Shown: positions 21,039 to 43,898 of the stretch, in pieces
Position numbering within the stretch: position 1 is the stretch's first letter
Layout: each line of letters begins with the position of its first letter
DNA from: Escherichia coli
GTDB taxonomy: Bacteria; Pseudomonadota; Gammaproteobacteria; Enterobacterales; Enterobacteriaceae
Length of the DNA stretch: 64,000 nucleotides
Direction: 5' to 3' (one strand)
NCBI RefSeq assembly: GCF_045037415.1
Contig: NZ_CP173438.1
Translations under genes and position numbers: made by a program
Notes under the pieces: model-generated
What the model saw: only the letters and a program-made list of their open reading frames with translations
Database searches by the model: none
Told to the model about the DNA's origin: nothing

Positions 21039-21104
21039 AAATTCCCTTGCGCCCGTAATATTATAAATACAGATCGGTTATTTATAGTAATACACTTCGG
21101 TGAT

Positions 21105-21821
21105 TTATAACTTTTGTTGTCGTTTCCCAGAACTTGAACCGTAGTCAGTTATCACCGACCATTCAACAATACTTCCCGCTCCGACAGGAAGACTAAACCG
21201 CTGCTCAGAAAATGGTCCTACCATCATCAATAATGCGCCAGGTTCAGATTTGCTCTCGGTGGGAACAATATTTTTTCCCGATACTGTCAGATCACTGAAT
21301 GAAATATAAAAAGGCGTTGGATTTTTTACTATGAGCTTCCCCGCTTCTTTATGGAACTTAAGTTTTTCCCATGCAGTGAGAGCATCACTATTATCCAAAG
21401 AAGCTGGCCGCCAAAATAATTTAAGCCGGGCTTTCATTGCAAATTGCAAGGTATTTCTATCTTTTAGTTCTTCTGGCATCGCAGAAACAGATTTTATGTT
21501 TGCCAGAAACAAACTTTCCCTATCCTGAGGAAGTTTGTTTTTATCACCTGTAAATACAATATGGAGTAATGTTTGCCGATTTTCTTCAAGTTTATAAACT
21601 GGAGGCGTAATGAGAAAGGGGGCTTTAGAGCCATCAATATTACTCACCCAGCTTTGCACCAAATAGCGTGCATATGCATCTTTATTTTTTAATGTGATTT
21701 GAACTTCATTTTGATTTGAAGGATAGATAATACGTGTACCGCCAAGAACAATACTTGCCTGAACTTGCAATGCCGTAAGAAGAAACGTAAAACCTAAACA
21801 AACTCGAGAAAAAACTGACAT
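21105..21821 (-). CDS. periplasmic fimbrial chaperone (PapD-like)
   Basis: ORF 21105..21854; start placed at ATG 21821 (MSVFSRVCLGF... signal peptide), preceded by ggaggg 8 nt upstream. Confidence 0.8.
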   Translation of the reverse strand: MSVFSRVCLGFTFLLTALQVQASIVLGGTRIIYPSNQNEVQITLKNKDAYARYLVQSWVSNIDGSKAPFLITPPVYKLEENRQTLLHIVFTGDKNKLPQDRESLFLANIKSVSAMPEELKDRNTLQFAMKARLKLFWRPASLDNSDALTAWEKLKFHKEAGKLIVKNPTPFYISFSDLTVSGKNIVPTESKSEPGALLMMVGPFSEQRFSLPVGAGSIVEWSVITDYGSSSGKRQQKL

Positions 21822-22433: not shown

Positions 22434-22734
22434 AAAAATCCCTTAATTATGAGGTAATACACATGATTCCATTCCAGAGCGACTGGTCAGGGCTTGATAA
22501 ATATTGATATTAGAAATATATCCACCAAATAATATTATTTTTAGATTAGAACAAAAAACACATAGCCTGTCTATACAAACTGCAGTAATAAAACAATAAC
22601 CACATGAATTTTAAAGTGTTGTTTTTATTTTAAGAGTTTAAGGTAATAAAATATAACATAAACCCAAAATATATATTAATGGTCGTATATTCATTAAATA
22701 AATATTTATTTGGTTTATCTAAATGATTTCATTA

Positions 22735-22767: not shown

Positions 22768-25293
22768 TTAATTACTACCAAACATCTCCTTGATCCAGCC
22801 AGCCACGCCGTCGCTGTCTTTTTGCTCCTGTTGAGCAGGTTGCTGTTGCTGCGGCTGAGAAGACTGATCAAACGGATTGCCTGACGGTTGCTGCTGCATC
22901 TCACTCTGCTGGCACAGCGATTGCGGATCGCTGGTCCAGACTGGCAAGACACGCATACCACCGCTGCAAACAAAGTTGCCGTCGTAGTCCACGCCCATAT
23001 CTGCAATATCTTCCGGCGGAACAAGATTCAGCGGTGTTGGCGTCTGGTTAGCCAGATAACGCTGATAAATCGACATTGCCCCGCTGGCACCATACAGTTT
23101 GGTCGGCTGGTTGTTATCACGGCCGACCCAGGTGATGGTCACCGTGCTCCCATCAATGCCCGCAAACCAGGTATCTACGTTATTGTTGGTAGTCCCTGTT
23201 TTCCCTGCCAGATGCAGGTTCGGGTATTTTGCCCCAAGCTGACGTCCCGTACCGCGTTGTACAACCTGCTGCATGGTCCATAGTGTCAGATACGCCGCCT
23301 GCGCCGGAACAGCGCGTTCTGCCTGCGGGAAGCTCTGATACAACACCTTGCCGTCTTCTGCGATGACTGAACGTAGCGCGGAAAGCGGAGCACGATTACC
23401 ACCGCTGGCGATAGTCTGGAAGGCCTGCGCCACTTCGATTGGCGTTAAGTTCAACGCCCCCAACAACATTGCTGGAACTGGATTCAGTTGATCTTTCGGC
23501 ACACCCAGTTTGATCCAGGTATCCGTAACCGCAGGCAGCCCCAACGCCATGCCCAGATTCACCGTTGGCACGTTCATCGAACGGGTCAACGCATCTACCA
23601 GCATCACCCTGCCACTTTCGCTATAACGACGATCATCGTTCTGCGGTGACCAGACCTGGCCATTCGGCTGACGCAGCGCGATTGGCGCATCGGCAATCCA
23701 CGTATTCAAACGATAGATTTTCGGCTGGCTTAAGGCCGTTAGATAAGTCGCTGGTTTTGCAAGGGAACCAATCGAACGACGCGCCTGCATCGCACGGTTG
23801 TAGCCCGCAAACTGCGGCTCAGAGCCACCGACCATCGCACGAACTTCACCGCTAAAGCGGTCAACAACCACAATCGCGGTTTCAAGATCGCTCAACTTAC
23901 GCTGTTTCTTCAGTGCCGGAATGCCTTCCACGGCGGCTTTTTCTGCCGCGTCCTGGGCCACCGAGTCAAAGGTAGTGAAGATCTTCACGCCGGAGAGATC
24001 TTTTACCTTATCGCCTAATTTCGCCTGCAGCTCCTGACGCACCAGCTGCATAAAGGCTGGCTGAGGAGAGATCACCCCACCGCGCGGCTGAACACCCAGC
24101 GGACGTGCACTCAACATGTCATAGAGTTCTTGATCAATAATTTGTTGCTGTTGCAGCAAACGTAGTACCAGGTTACGTCGCTCCAGCGCCAGTTTCGGGT
24201 TACGCCACGGGTTGTAGATGGACGCCCCTTTCACCATACCCACCAACAGCGCCTGCTGATCGAGGCTCAATTCTTCTACCGGGCGACCAAAGTAATACAA
24301 GCTCGCCAGCGGGAAGCCGCGGATTTCGTTGTCGCCGCTCTGACCGAGATACACCTCGTTCATATACAGCTCAAGAATACGGTCTTTGCTGTAACGCGCG
24401 TCCATGATCAGCGCCATGTAGGCTTCGTTCGCTTTACGCCAGTAAGAACGCTCGCTGGAGAGAAACAGGTTTTTAACCAACTGTTGCGTCAGCGTACTCG
24501 CCCCCTGCACCGTGCGTCCGGCAGTCAGGTTTGCCAGCACCGCACGTCCGATTGAGTAGAGACTGATCCCATCATGCTCGTAGAAATGACGGTCTTCTGT
24601 CGCCAGCAAAGTATCCACCAGCAAATCCGGGAAACCACTGCGCGGCACAAACAGACGCTGCTCACCGTTTGGCGAAGAGATCATGGTGATCAGGCGCGGA
24701 TCAAGACGGAAGAAACCGAACTGACGGTTGTTCTCCATATTGACTATCGTCGCCAGATGATCGCCATCAAAGGTCAGACGCGCGCGCACCTGCCCTTCTT
24801 TGCTGTCCGGGAAATCAAACGGACGGCGGATCATCTCAATGCTGTTGGCCTGTACGGTAAACTCACCAGGACGGGTCATTTTCGACACCTGGCGATACTG
24901 GGTCGCCTCCAGCAGCTTCACCATCTCGTTCTTGCTGATGGTCATGTCTGGCTCAAGGTTGACCATTCGACCATAAACTGCCGCGGGCAATTGCCAGACC
25001 TTGCCATCAATACGGCTGCGAATTTTTTGATCGAGATAAACGCCGTAAATGGCGATCAGCACGGCAAAAACGATAGCCAGTTTTAGCAGCAGCCATAGCC
25101 AGCCGCGTTTGCCACGAGGCTTACGCCCTTTGCCTTTGCCCTTACCTTTGCGCGGCATCGGTTCTTCATCCTCATAGTCATCATAATCGTCGTAATCATC
25201 GTCATCTTCGTAACGACGACGGCTTACCTTTTGTTTGACCGGACGCGTCGGTTTCCCTTTGCGTCCAATTGGCTCGCGGTCATTCCCGGCCAT
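22768..25293 (-). CDS. mrcB: penicillin-binding protein 1B (bifunctional glycosyltransferase/transpeptidase)
   Basis: ORF 22768..25308; start moved to [13 protein letters not shown]; acidic [15 protein letters not shown] tract and Gln-rich C-terminus. Confidence 0.9.
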
Positions 25294-41124: not shown

Positions 41125-41976
41125 GTGTTAATTATCGAAACCCTGCCGCTGCTGCGTCAGCAAATCCGCCGCCTGCGTATGGAAGGTAAGCGCGTGGCGC
41201 TGGTGCCCACCATGGGTAACCTGCACGACGGCCATATGAAGCTGGTCGACGAAGCCAAAGCCCGCGCCGATGTGGTCGTCGTCAGTATTTTCGTTAACCC
41301 AATGCAGTTTGACCGCCCGGAAGATCTGGCACGTTATCCACGGACCTTGCAAGAGGACTGCGAAAAGCTGAACAAACGTAAAGTGGATTTAGTTTTCGCG
41401 CCTTCGGTAAAAGAGATCTACCCGAACGGTACAGAAACCCACACCTATGTTGATGTTCCTGGTCTTTCCACCATGCTGGAAGGTGCCAGCCGTCCGGGAC
41501 ATTTTCGCGGCGTTTCGACTATTGTCAGCAAGCTGTTCAACCTGGTCCAGCCGGACATCGCTTGCTTCGGCGAAAAGGACTTTCAGCAACTGGCGCTGAT
41601 CCGCAAAATGGTTGCCGATATGGGCTTTGATATTGAGATTATCGGCGTACCGATTATGCGCGCCAAAGACGGTCTGGCGCTGAGTTCCCGTAACGGTTAT
41701 CTGACGGCGGAACAACGCAAAATTGCGCCCGGTCTGTACAAGGTTTTAAGTTCGATTGCCGACAAATTGCAGGCTGGCGAACGGGATCTCGATGAAATTA
41801 TTGCCATTGCCGGGCAAGAACTGAATGAAAAAGGCTTCCGCGCCGATGATATTCAGATTCGTGATGCCGACACATTGCTGGAAGTCTCTGAAAACAGCAA
41901 ACGCGCAGTGATTCTGGTAGCCGCCTGGCTTGGCGATGCTCGCCTGATCGACAACAAAATGGTCGAACTGGCGTAA
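41125..41976 (+). CDS. panC: pantothenate synthetase
   Basis: ORF 41110..41976; GTG at 41125 gives the known (M)[12 protein letters not shown]-terminus, 283 aa. Confidence 0.9.
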
Positions 41977-42057: not shown

Positions 42058-42255
42058 TTAGTTAATCATTTTATCAATCTCAGCAAGAGGTAAATTTGCC
42101 ATCTCTGCAACGTCTTCCCGAGACATTCCTTTACTCAGAAGACGCAGGGCCAGTCTTACCTTCTGGAGTCCCTCTTTATATCCCTTCTGAAATCCCTTCT
42201 CTTCAAACCACTGCGCCAACGTCTGCCTGGTTTCTCTCCGTGTCTTTATTTCCAT
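42058..42255 (-). CDS. 65-aa ORF paralogous to the C-terminal tail of the adjacent Rpn nuclease (possible free-standing Rpn tail / RpnS-like small protein)
   Basis: Translation ...TLAQWFEEKG...LALRLLSKGMSREDVAEMANLPLAEIDKMIN aligns with the last ~65 aa of the 306-aa RpnC-like protein; 78-nt DNA segment 42073..42150 matches 42339..42416 at 75/78. Confidence 0.4.
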   Translation of the reverse strand: MEIKTRRETRQTLAQWFEEKGFQKGYKEGLQKVRLALRLLSKGMSREDVAEMANLPLAEIDKMIN

Positions 42256-42323: not shown

Positions 42324-43244
42324 TTAGCTAATCAGCTTATCAACCTCAGCAAGAGGTAAATTTGCCATCTCTGCAACGTCTTCCCGAGACATCCCTTTAC
42401 TCAGAAAACGCAGGGCGAATTCCTGTCTTACTTCCTGTCTAACCTCTTGTATTACCTCCTGTCTTACCTCCTGTCTTACCTCCTGCCTTCCCCTCTCTTC
42501 AAACCACTGCGCCAGCGTCATCATAGACTCCCCTCCCGTTTCCCTGTCTCGCAACACACCATAAAACAAATCCGCTTGTTCAGTATGACCGCGTTGCAGC
42601 ATATAGTTTTGCATGGCAACTAACTGACTTCCGCTAGTGTACCCTTCGTCAATCAGCGTGACCAGTTGCTCCAGCAATAACATTAAGTCGCGCTGGCGAA
42701 TATGCTTTTGCAGTAGTTCGAGAATCGCAATCCGCCGGTGCTGCATGATTTCGTCATCCGGCGTGATGGTGATATCCACCAGCGGGAAAGGGTTGTTGTA
42801 AACGCGTCGCGCCAGCTCCGGCGAGTAAAACATATCAAACCAGCACATTGAGAGCGGATAAGGTGTGGCCTCGCCCTGATAAAACAGAATCGGCACCACC
42901 AGCGGCAGCTTATCGTGATCCGCCTCCAGATGCCGGTGCATGGCGGCAATGGCATAGCGCATCATGCGAAAGGTCATTTTCTTATCCGGCTTGCTTTGGT
43001 GTTCAATCACAACATGCAGATAACCCGTACTACCCTGCATCTGTACGGAATAGAGCACGTCAGTGCTGTGCCCTTTCAGGCTTTCTTCAATAAAACTCCC
43101 CGACTCAAGATGCAGCGTGTCGAGGTCACACAGTTCGCGTAGCTCCGCTGGCAAATGGATATCCAGAAAGTCGCGAGCCGTTTCCGCATGCATTAAAAAT
43201 TGTTTAAACACCGCATCATGCGGTGTGGTACTCGGTGCATCCAT
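42324..43244 (-). CDS. rpnC: recombination-promoting nuclease RpnC-like (YhgA/transposase_31 family, PD-(D/E)XK)
   Basis: 306-aa translation; position between panC and panD matches yadD/rpnC of K-12; C-terminal RQEV tandem repeats. Confidence 0.8.
   Translation of the reverse strand: MDAPSTTPHDAVFKQFLMHAETARDFLDIHLPAELRELCDLDTLHLESGSFIEESLKGHSTDVLYSVQMQGSTGYLHVVIEHQSKPDKKMTFRMMRYAIAAMHRHLEADHDKLPLVVPILFYQGEATPYPLSMCWFDMFYSPELARRVYNNPFPLVDITITPDDEIMQHRRIAILELLQKHIRQRDLMLLLEQLVTLIDEGYTSGSQLVAMQNYMLQRGHTEQADLFYGVLRDRETGGESMMTLAQWFEERGRQEVRQEVRQEVIQEVRQEVRQEFALRFLSKGMSREDVAEMANLPLAEVDKLIS
42421..42492 (-). repeat. six tandem 12-nt units (tcctgtcttacc-like) inside rpnC 3' region encoding (RQEV)n
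   Basis: Read directly: tcctgtcttact tcctgtctaacc tcttgtattacc tcctgtcttacc tcctgtcttacc tcctgccttccc. Confidence 0.85.
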
Positions 43245-43517: not shown

Positions 43518-43898
43518 ATGATTCGCACGATGCTGCAGGGCAAACTCCACCGCGTGAAAGTGACTCATGCGGACCTGCACTATGAAGGTTCTTGCGCCAT
43601 TGATCAGGATTTTCTTGACGCAGCCGGTATTCTCGAAAACGAAGCCATTGATATCTGGAATGTTACCAACGGCAAGCGTTTCTCCACCTATGCCATCGCG
43701 GCAGAACGCGGTTCGAGAATTATTTCTGTCAACGGTGCGGCGGCCCACTGCGCCAGCGTCGGCGATATTGTCATCATCGCCAGCTTCGTTACCATGCCAG
43801 ATGAAGAAGCTCGCACCTGGCGACCCAACGTCGCCTATTTTGAAGGCGACAACGAAATGAAACGTACCGCGAAAGCGATTCCGGTACAGGTTGCCTGA
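43518..43898 (+). CDS. panD: aspartate 1-decarboxylase proenzyme
   Basis: 126-aa translation ([29 protein letters not shown]...), pyruvoyl self-cleavage site G-S present. Confidence 0.95.

What the first reader, a model, noticed from the sequence alone, without database searches (positions are those of the whole stretch)
42421..42492. Perfect 12-nt tandem array inside the rpnC tail
Six consecutive 12-nt units encode an RQEV-type repeat immediately upstream of the conserved tail. The paralogous mini-ORF has a non-repetitive sequence (EGFQKGYKEGLQKV) at the same position. A short in-frame tandem array is prone to slipped-strand expansion or contraction, so tail length may vary between isolates.
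Basis: seen in the sequence. Interest (0 to 1): 0.5.

Follow-up and report, generated by a model that had tools for sequence, protein, structure and literature searches.

The report
Known variable repeat in RpnC antitoxin tail

Summary
The array is real but not perfect. There are six 12-nt units (in-frame register 42417-42488, minus strand) encoding RQEV-RQEV-RQEV-IQEV-RQEV-RQEF. Only units 2 and 3 are identical (TRF: 85% matches).

It lies in rpnC (yadD), between panD and panC. It sits 12 codons after the conserved internal start (ATGATG at 42519-42524, RBS GGGAGGGGAG), which in K-12 makes the small antitoxin RpnC_S.

Copy number varies between E. coli genomes. I saw 2, 3, 4, 6, 7 and 8 units in fetched complete genomes, 5 in four others, and up to 11 in database proteins. 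Every length difference I parsed is a multiple of 12 nt.

Four complete genomes differ from the window, across 40.4 kb, by little more than loss of one exact AGACAGGAGGTA unit. So units are gained or lost about as fast as, or faster than, point substitutions.

Zhong et al. 2023 (PNAS, PMC10400941) already reported all the main points:
- the strain-variable four-residue (dodecamer) repeats in RpnS/RpnL, most numerous in RpnC;
- loss of RpnC_L neutralisation when repeat numbers are mismatched;

Verdict: genuine, correctly interpreted, already known. Slippage as the mechanism and within-population heterogeneity remain untested.

The parts
42324..43244 (-). rpnC (yadD) full-length ORF, RpnC_L, 306 aa plus stop
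   Evidence: ORF list. Pfam Transposase_31 PF04754 E 3.3e-86. NCBIfam TIGR01784 Rpn family, 271 bits against a cutoff of 52. 100% identical DNA is annotated rpnC in complete E. coli genomes.
42624..43226 (-). N-terminal YhgA-like PD-(D/E)XK nuclease domain (residues 7-207)
   Evidence: Pfam match to residues 7-207. D62 and the E81-H-Q83 motif are visible in the translation.
42528..42537 (-). Shine-Dalgarno-like GGGAGGGGAG, 3 nt upstream of the internal start
   Evidence: Sequence read. Identical in K-12 MG1655 and in 8 more of the 12 fetched loci. Internal initiation in K-12 rpnC was shown by ribosome profiling and SPA tagging in PMC10400941.
42327..42524 (-). RpnC_S: 66-aa small protein (antitoxin) read from internal ATG ATG (M241/M242) in the same frame
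   Evidence: for coordinates. A profile of these tails hits the RpnA_S crystal structure 7TH0 at E 5.6e-07. The AlphaFold2 model has helices 4-42, 47-53 and 58-65, pLDDT 82. Function is taken from PMC10400941.
42417..42488 (-). Six-unit 12-nt (four-residue) repeat array, RQEV RQEV RQEV IQEV RQEV RQEF, residues 253-276 of RpnC_L and 13-36 of RpnC_S
   Evidence: TRF, unit dissection, lag-12 statistic.
42453..42476 (-). The two identical AGACAGGAGGTA units, the part that changes copy number in this allele lineage
   Evidence: This unit is present x1 in L003 and in the 5-unit allele, x2 in the window and L005, and x3 in L006. The only gap against L013-L015, L018 and L019 is one such unit.
42327..42416 (-). 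Conserved end of the tail (ALRFLSKGMSREDVAEMANLPLAEVDKLIS): end of helix 1 plus two short helices
   Evidence: Alignment A2, model. Weak helix-turn-helix-like fold matches only.
   Evidence: ORF. The DNA alignment shows duplication from about the internal start to about 20 nt past the stop. TIGR01784 C-terminal match E 3e-09. Annotated 'RpnC/YadD family protein' or 'hypothetical protein'. Its 5' junction is present in 1,555 of 5,426 genomes. Described as rpnCSs in PMC10400941.
42157..42198 (-). Degenerate repeat of rpnCSs (KGFQ KGYK EGLQ KV)
   Evidence: Translation. KGFQ is x1 in the 65/67-aa forms and x2 in the 71-aa forms of other strains.

Best explanation
The array is the hypervariable four-residue repeat of the Rpn toxin-antitoxin 'gene within a gene'. 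rpnC encodes a full-length PD-(D/E)XK nuclease, RpnC_L. From the internal ATG at 42522-42524 it also encodes the 66-residue RpnC_S, which binds and silences RpnC_L.

The 24 repeat residues lie in the long first helix of that C-terminal domain, which is the dimerisation and pairing surface. Each 12-nt unit therefore lengthens the helix by four residues in both proteins at once. Only partners with equal repeat number pair productively.

Units are gained or lost one at a time where neighbouring units are identical or nearly so. The most likely route is replication slippage or unequal exchange between the 12-nt repeats, which yields the allele series seen among strains.

What each step rests on:
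- Shown here: the identity of the gene, the position of the array relative to the internal start, the helix prediction, homology to RpnA_S, copy-number variation among genomes, and unit-sized change on a near-identical background.
- Taken from the literature: RpnC_S expression, antitoxin activity, and specificity by repeat number.
- Inferred: the slippage mechanism and selection by phage.
For: Gene identity.

The internal start and RBS are identical to K-12. In K-12, RpnC_S was detected experimentally (PMC10400941).

The array starts at residue 13 of RpnC_S, inside the 8-20 residue range the paper gives for all RpnS repeats.

The model puts residues 4-42 in one continuous helix. The tail profile matches the RpnA_S structure 7TH0 at E 5.6e-07.

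Copy number is 2 to 8 units in complete genomes and up to 11 in database proteins. Every length difference I parsed is a multiple of 12 nt.

Allele census at >=99% identity, all lower bounds: 5-unit 4 genomes, 6-unit (window allele) 218, 7-unit 227, 8-unit 9.

L013 against the window: 20,921 nt with 0 mismatches and one 12-nt gap. Eight strains over 40.4 kb show 3 singleton SNPs, one 6-nt indel private to the window, and the 12-nt unit splitting them 4 against 4.

The unit that changes is the exactly repeated AGACAGGAGGTA, present x1, x2 and x3 in different strains.

The paper shows that adding one repeat to RpnC_S or to RpnC_LS alone abolishes neutralisation, and adding it to both restores it.
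Against: No experiment was done on this RQEV-type allele. The published +1-repeat test used the K-12 KGIE-type allele.

The simple sigma-70 scan found no internal promoter on the minus strand inside rpnC. The paper cites dRNA-seq start sites in K-12.

Foldseek against the PDB gave no significant hit and did not list 7TH0 in its top 50. The structural link therefore rests on the sequence profile and the secondary-structure prediction.

Antiphage activity was shown for plasmid RpnP2, not for RpnC. PADLOC (2023) has no matching model.

Slippage is not distinguished from unequal recombination. The four 5-unit strains may descend from a single event, so the rate is not measured.
Confidence: 0.85

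Rival explanations
1. Tail diversity is produced mainly by recombination that swaps whole tail segments, between rpnC and the adjacent rpnCSs copy or between strains. It is not produced by unit-by-unit slippage.
For: Tails are mosaic. The same repeat type is joined to different C-terminal ends (...DKLIS...DKLINSN...DKVINLI...DKMIN) and vice versa. The tail and rpnCSs share 107-nt stretches at 92.5% identity in direct orientation about 270 nt apart, a ready substrate for exchange. The paper notes fusions of the rpn N-terminal region with rpnSs.
Against: The 5-unit against 6-unit difference has no accompanying substitution anywhere in the tail or in 21-40 kb of flank. The x1, x2, x3 series of one exact unit is what unit-sized events give. 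Segment exchange probably explains the large jumps between the KGIE-type and RQEV-type arrays. It does not explain the single-unit steps.
Confidence: 0.25
2. The repeat is a neutral low-complexity spacer. Copy number drifts without functional consequence.
For: Many alleles coexist at appreciable frequency in E. coli. No phenotype was tested here.
Against: Published experiments show that a one-unit mismatch abolishes neutralisation of RpnC_L by RpnC_S. The repeat lies in a predicted continuous helix, not a loop. The same four-residue periodicity recurs in Salmonella and other enterobacterial homologues and in rpnCSs.
Confidence: 0.07
3. The copy-number differences are assembly or sequencing artefacts.
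For: Tandem repeats can collapse in short-read assemblies. L013 is a metagenome scaffold.
Against: The whole array is 72 nt, shorter than a read, and its units are distinguishable. The alleles recur identically in many independent complete genomes: 218, 227, 9 and 4. P0001 is seen on 401 contigs.
Confidence: 0.01

Closest known systems
E. coli RpnC_L / RpnC_S with hypervariable four-amino-acid repeats (Zhong et al. 2023, PNAS 120:e2307382120; PMC10400941)
   Same: Same gene and the same locus (panD-rpnC-panC). The internal start and RBS are the same as in K-12. The repeats occupy the same position after the initiating Met, and the unit is the same 12 nt (four residues). The strain-to-strain variation in unit number is the same, and so is the optional downstream rpnCSs copy.
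   Different: The window carries an RQEV-type array of six units. K-12 carries a four-unit KGIE/KGIQ/RQEV/SQEF array. The published mismatch experiment used the K-12 allele plus one KGIE. This study adds only the observation that near-isogenic genomes differ by one unit.
RpnA_S crystal structure (PDB 7TH0)
   Same: Homologous domain by sequence profile (E 5.6e-07). The predicted architecture matches: a long first helix followed by two short helices.
   Different: 7TH0 is 49 residues and has no repeat insertion. Pairwise sequence search from RpnC_S alone does not find it, and Foldseek did not rank it.
TAEL repeats of the EcoR124I / EcoR124II HsdS specificity subunit (comparison made in PMC10400941)
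   Same: A four-residue (12-nt) in-frame repeat in a helical spacer. Its copy number (2 or 3) changes molecular specificity, and it changes by unit gain or loss.
   Different: There the repeat sets the spacing of DNA target half-sites in a restriction enzyme. Here it sets protein-protein pairing between a toxin and its antitoxin. This rests on the paper's discussion and my general knowledge and was not tested here.
Simple-sequence contingency loci (phase-variable genes of Neisseria, Haemophilus, Campylobacter)
   Same: A short tandem repeat inside a coding region, with copy number differing among very close relatives.
   Different: Those use units not divisible by three (or promoter spacers) to switch genes on and off at high rate. 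This unit is 12 nt, so the frame is always kept and the outcome is a change of specificity, not on/off switching. A high switching rate is not demonstrated.

Membership tests
Rpn family (recombination-promoting nuclease; Pfam PF04754 Transposase_31, TIGR01784) | N-terminal YhgA-like PD-(D/E)XK domain | tested here: met
   PF04754 at residues 7-207, E 3.3e-86. TIGR01784 271 bits against a cutoff of 52.1.
Rpn family, RpnC orthologue | Located between panD and panC and near-identical to annotated E. coli rpnC | tested here: met
   5,424 of 5,426 complete genomes match, annotated rpnC. K-12 has the same gene order. The N-terminal 235 residues are 227/235 identical to K-12.
RpnL/RpnS gene-within-gene toxin-antitoxin | In-frame internal start with RBS giving a small C-terminal protein | tested here: met
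   GGGAGGGGAG-TCT-ATGATG is identical to K-12. Only the sequence was tested. Expression was shown in K-12 by the paper and was not measured for this allele.
RpnL/RpnS gene-within-gene toxin-antitoxin | RpnS domain homologous to the solved RpnA_S three-helix bundle | tested here: met
   Profile A2 hits 7TH0_A at E 5.6e-07. The model has helices 4-42, 47-53 and 58-65. Foldseek gave no significant hit.
RpnL/RpnS gene-within-gene toxin-antitoxin | Four-residue repeats beginning 8-20 residues after the RpnS Met, with number varying among strains of a species | tested here: met
   The repeat starts at residue 13 of RpnC_S. There are 2 to 8 units in complete genomes and up to 11 in database proteins.
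RpnL/RpnS gene-within-gene toxin-antitoxin | RpnL is toxic (DNA endonuclease, SOS induction) and is neutralised only by RpnS with a matching repeat number | not testable with these tools
   Known for K-12 RpnC only, from PMC10400941.
Antiphage defence system | Protects against phage; recognised by defence-system models | tested here: inconclusive
   No PADLOC v2.0.0 (2023) model matched, and I did not establish whether that library holds an Rpn model. Protection was shown for plasmid RpnP2, not RpnC.
Phase-variable contingency locus | Repeat changes shift the frame or promoter spacing to switch expression on and off | tested here: not met
   The unit is 12 nt and all parsed alleles keep the frame. 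One possible -25-nt allele (H59) was not followed up.
Phase-variable contingency locus | High-frequency length heterogeneity within clonal populations | not testable with these tools
   Needs read-level or amplicon data. The only indirect evidence is that one unit differs on a 40-kb near-identical background.

The most novel reading that the evidence does not exclude
The array may behave as a true hypermutable locus, changing unit number within clonal lineages much faster than point mutation. The RpnC nuclease itself might promote this. If so, lineages would continually re-key the RpnC_L/RpnC_S pair. The free-standing rpnCSs copy has a different, shorter repeat that should not pair with this RpnC_L. 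It would then be an archived earlier tail left by such turnover, or a decoy with its own role. My data show only that one unit differs between genomes that are otherwise almost identical over 40 kb. They do not exclude this reading, and they do not measure a rate or count independent events.
Probability: 0.15. Interest if true: 0.55.

Novelty: already known. Interest (0 to 1): 0.15.

Why it matters
The repeat number is a molecular key that decides which small antitoxin can silence which Rpn nuclease. Its variation is therefore likely part of an arms race with phage, and it keeps paralogous Rpn systems insulated from each other. That is interesting biology, but it has been published for this very gene. 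The residual value here is small: a genome-scale confirmation, an allele census for the RQEV-type lineage, and evidence that single-unit changes occur on near-isogenic backgrounds. The last point bears on the open question of how and how fast the dodecamer repeats expand.

Tried and rejected
- Pairwise sequence search of RpnC_S against solved structures gave only weak helix-turn-helix-like and designed-repeat hits. A profile was needed to reach 7TH0.
- Foldseek of the 66-residue model against the PDB gave nothing significant (best E 0.6, partial HTH matches), so I make no fold-level claim.
- The sigma-70 consensus scan found no internal minus-strand promoter in rpnC, so I do not annotate one.
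- PADLOC gave no hit.
- The paper's supplementary alignments are not held as text. I could not check whether this exact RQEV allele is shown there.
- A literature search for later work on RpnC repeats found nothing beyond the 2023 paper and its commentary.
- I considered whether the three AGGAGGT motifs in the array create extra internal starts. I rejected this because no start codon lies at Shine-Dalgarno spacing.
- I considered an assembly artefact and rejected it (see rivals).

Full report
**Observation**

The window holds a period-12 tandem array at the stated place. TRF reports 42421-42489, 5.8 copies, 85% matches, no indels, score 103, the strongest tandem repeat in the 64 kb. A lag-12 self-comparison over 72 nt gives 51 of 60 matches. 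The window-wide mean is 16.5 (sd 3.9) and the next best place scores 34.

The array is not perfect. In the reading frame of the minus-strand gene the units (42417-42488) are AGGCAGGAGGTA, AGACAGGAGGTA, AGACAGGAGGTA, ATACAAGAGGTT, AGACAGGAAGTA, AGACAGGAATTC. They encode RQEV RQEV RQEV IQEV RQEV RQEF, and only units 2 and 3 are identical.

**What the gene is**

The array lies in a 306-codon ORF, 42324-43244 on the minus strand, between panC (ending at 41976) and panD (43518-43898).
- The protein has a YhgA-like Transposase_31 domain at residues 7-207 (E 3.3e-86).
- It passes the NCBIfam Rpn-family model.
- The tail region (397 nt) matches 5,424 of 5,426 complete E. coli genomes, where it is annotated rpnC.
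- K-12 MG1655 has the same panD-rpnC-panC order.

**Anatomy of the tail**

Twelve codons upstream of the array lies ATG ATG (M241/M242, 42519-42524), preceded by GGGAGGGGAG-TCT. This stretch is base-for-base identical in K-12 and in most fetched loci. Read from there, the frame gives a 66-residue protein in which the repeat occupies residues 13-36.

An AlphaFold2 model built on an alignment of 27 tails (A2) has mean pLDDT 82. It places residues 4-42 in one continuous helix, followed by two short helices at 47-53 and 58-65. A profile of A2 matches the crystal structure of RpnA_S (7TH0) at E 5.6e-07. Pairwise search and Foldseek were uninformative apart from weak helix-turn-helix-like matches.

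**The mini-ORF**

ORF 42058-42255 (minus strand, 65 aa) is a second copy of the tail. The DNA homology runs from about the internal start to about 20 nt past the stop. It has its own ATG and an AAGGGA motif upstream. It is annotated 'hypothetical protein' or 'RpnC/YadD family protein' in other genomes. Its unique 5' junction is present in 1,555 of 5,426 genomes.

At the position of the array it has KGFQ KGYK EGLQ KV, a degenerate three-unit version of the same period. Other strains have KGFQ twice (71-aa form). It is therefore not truly non-repetitive.

**Does copy number vary?**

Yes.
- In an even-step sample of 60 genomes, nearly all single-piece matches differ from the query span by -48, -36, -24, 0, +12 or +24 nt. 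The exceptions are a few two-piece or partial rows and H59 at -25.
- By my reading of those spans, roughly 37 of the 60 have the K-12-like four units.
- Twelve loci were fetched and parsed:

| Units | Loci |
|---|---|
| 2 | L011 |
| 3 | L007 |
| 4 | K-12 L002, EDL933 L010 |
| 6 | L001, L003, L009, L012 (and the window) |
| 7 | L005 |
| 8 | L004, L006, L008 |

- Database proteins reach about 11 units (P0019, P0020), and Salmonella homologues vary in the same way.
- Allele-specific queries count, at >=99% identity and as lower bounds: 4 genomes with the 5-unit form, 218 with the window's 6-unit form, 227 with a 7-unit form and 9 with an 8-unit form.

**How the changes look**

Within the RQEV lineage the exactly repeated unit AGACAGGAGGTA is present once (L003 and the 5-unit allele), twice (the window, L005) or three times (L006). 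Protein P0001 (302 aa, seen on 401 contigs) is the window protein minus one RQEV and nothing else.

A metagenome scaffold carrying it (L013) aligns to the window over 20,921 nt with zero mismatches and one 12-nt gap.

I aligned 40.4 kb from four complete genomes with 5 units, three with 6 units, and the window. The only differences are three singleton SNPs, one 6-nt indel private to the window, and the 12-nt unit, which splits the strains four against four.

Unit gain or loss therefore happens on a time scale comparable to or shorter than single substitutions in 40 kb. Whether the four 5-unit strains reflect one event or several cannot be told from this region.

**Comparison with what is known**

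Zhong et al. 2023 (PMC10400941) report the following:
[quoted passage not shown] This was shown by ribosome profiling and tagging, including for rpnC.
- RpnS blocks the toxic nuclease RpnL.
- The repeats begin 8-20 residues after the RpnS Met, in the first helix, which forms the dimer interface in the RpnA_S crystal.
- Adding one repeat to RpnC_S or to RpnC_LS alone abolishes neutralisation, and adding it to both restores it.
- A second copy, rpnCSs, lies downstream of rpnC in some strains.
- The mechanism of expansion of 'these dodecamer repeats' is left open.

The accompanying commentary (PMC10400984) restates this. A search for later work found nothing further. The finding is therefore an instance of a published phenomenon in the very gene where it was studied.

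**Mechanism, and what each step rests on**

- Shown here: gene identity, position of the array in the RpnC_S frame, predicted helical context, homology to RpnA_S, copy-number polymorphism, and unit-sized change on a near-isogenic background.
- From the literature: production of RpnC_S, its antitoxin action, and specificity by repeat number.
- Inferred: units change by replication slippage or unequal exchange between the identical neighbouring units.
- Also inferred: larger differences between the KGIE-type and RQEV-type arrays, and the mosaic C-terminal ends, reflect segment exchange, possibly with rpnCSs.
- Also inferred: phage pressure selects for the diversity.
- By the published rule, the 65-aa RpnCSs here has a different and shorter repeat, so it should not pair with the 6-unit RpnC_L. 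Its role is open.

**Verdict**

It is already known. Interest is low. The only increment is the census and the near-isogenic one-unit difference.

Noticed in passing
window 42058-42255 (-): The free-standing rpnCSs copy is present in about 29% of complete E. coli genomes (1,555 of 5,426). It has its own variable KGFQ unit, x1 or x2. Its repeat does not match the adjacent rpnC array, so by the published pairing rule it should not neutralise this RpnC_L.
   Followed up: partly
window ~22615-22630: The window lacks one 6-nt unit (GTTTTT on the + strand) that seven otherwise near-identical E. coli genomes carry. It lies in an AT-rich intergenic stretch between mrcB and a fimbrial gene. This is a second small tandem-unit indel in the same clone.
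   Followed up: no
window 42454-42460, 42466-42472, 42478-42484 (- strand): Three perfect AGGAGGT (Shine-Dalgarno consensus) motifs lie at 12-nt spacing inside the array. No start codon follows at the right distance, so this is probably a by-product of the R-Q-E-V codons, though such motifs could bind ribosomes within the ORF.
   Followed up: partly
hit H59, strain C6, NZ_CP195945.1 124265-124631: The match spans 367 nt for query positions 1-392 (-25 nt), not a multiple of 12 or 3. This may be a frameshifted rpnC tail in that strain.
   Followed up: no
L009, L010 and L011 (rpnC-panC spacer): Some strains without an annotated rpnCSs still have a 220-300-nt spacer between rpnC and panC, against 73 nt in K-12. 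One strain (PS10-3) has an rpnCSs pseudogene lacking its N-terminus. This suggests decaying remnants of the second copy.
   Followed up: no
window 59711-59760, 25166-25213, 21066-21109: Other short tandem repeats reported by TRF (periods 21/15/6, 18/9 and 23). They were not examined.
   Followed up: no
window 22330-62720 against L014, L015 and L017-L021: The window belongs to a tight clone. Eight strains from the USA, Japan, Sweden, Switzerland, Saudi Arabia and elsewhere share 40.4 kb with only three singleton SNPs.
   Followed up: partly
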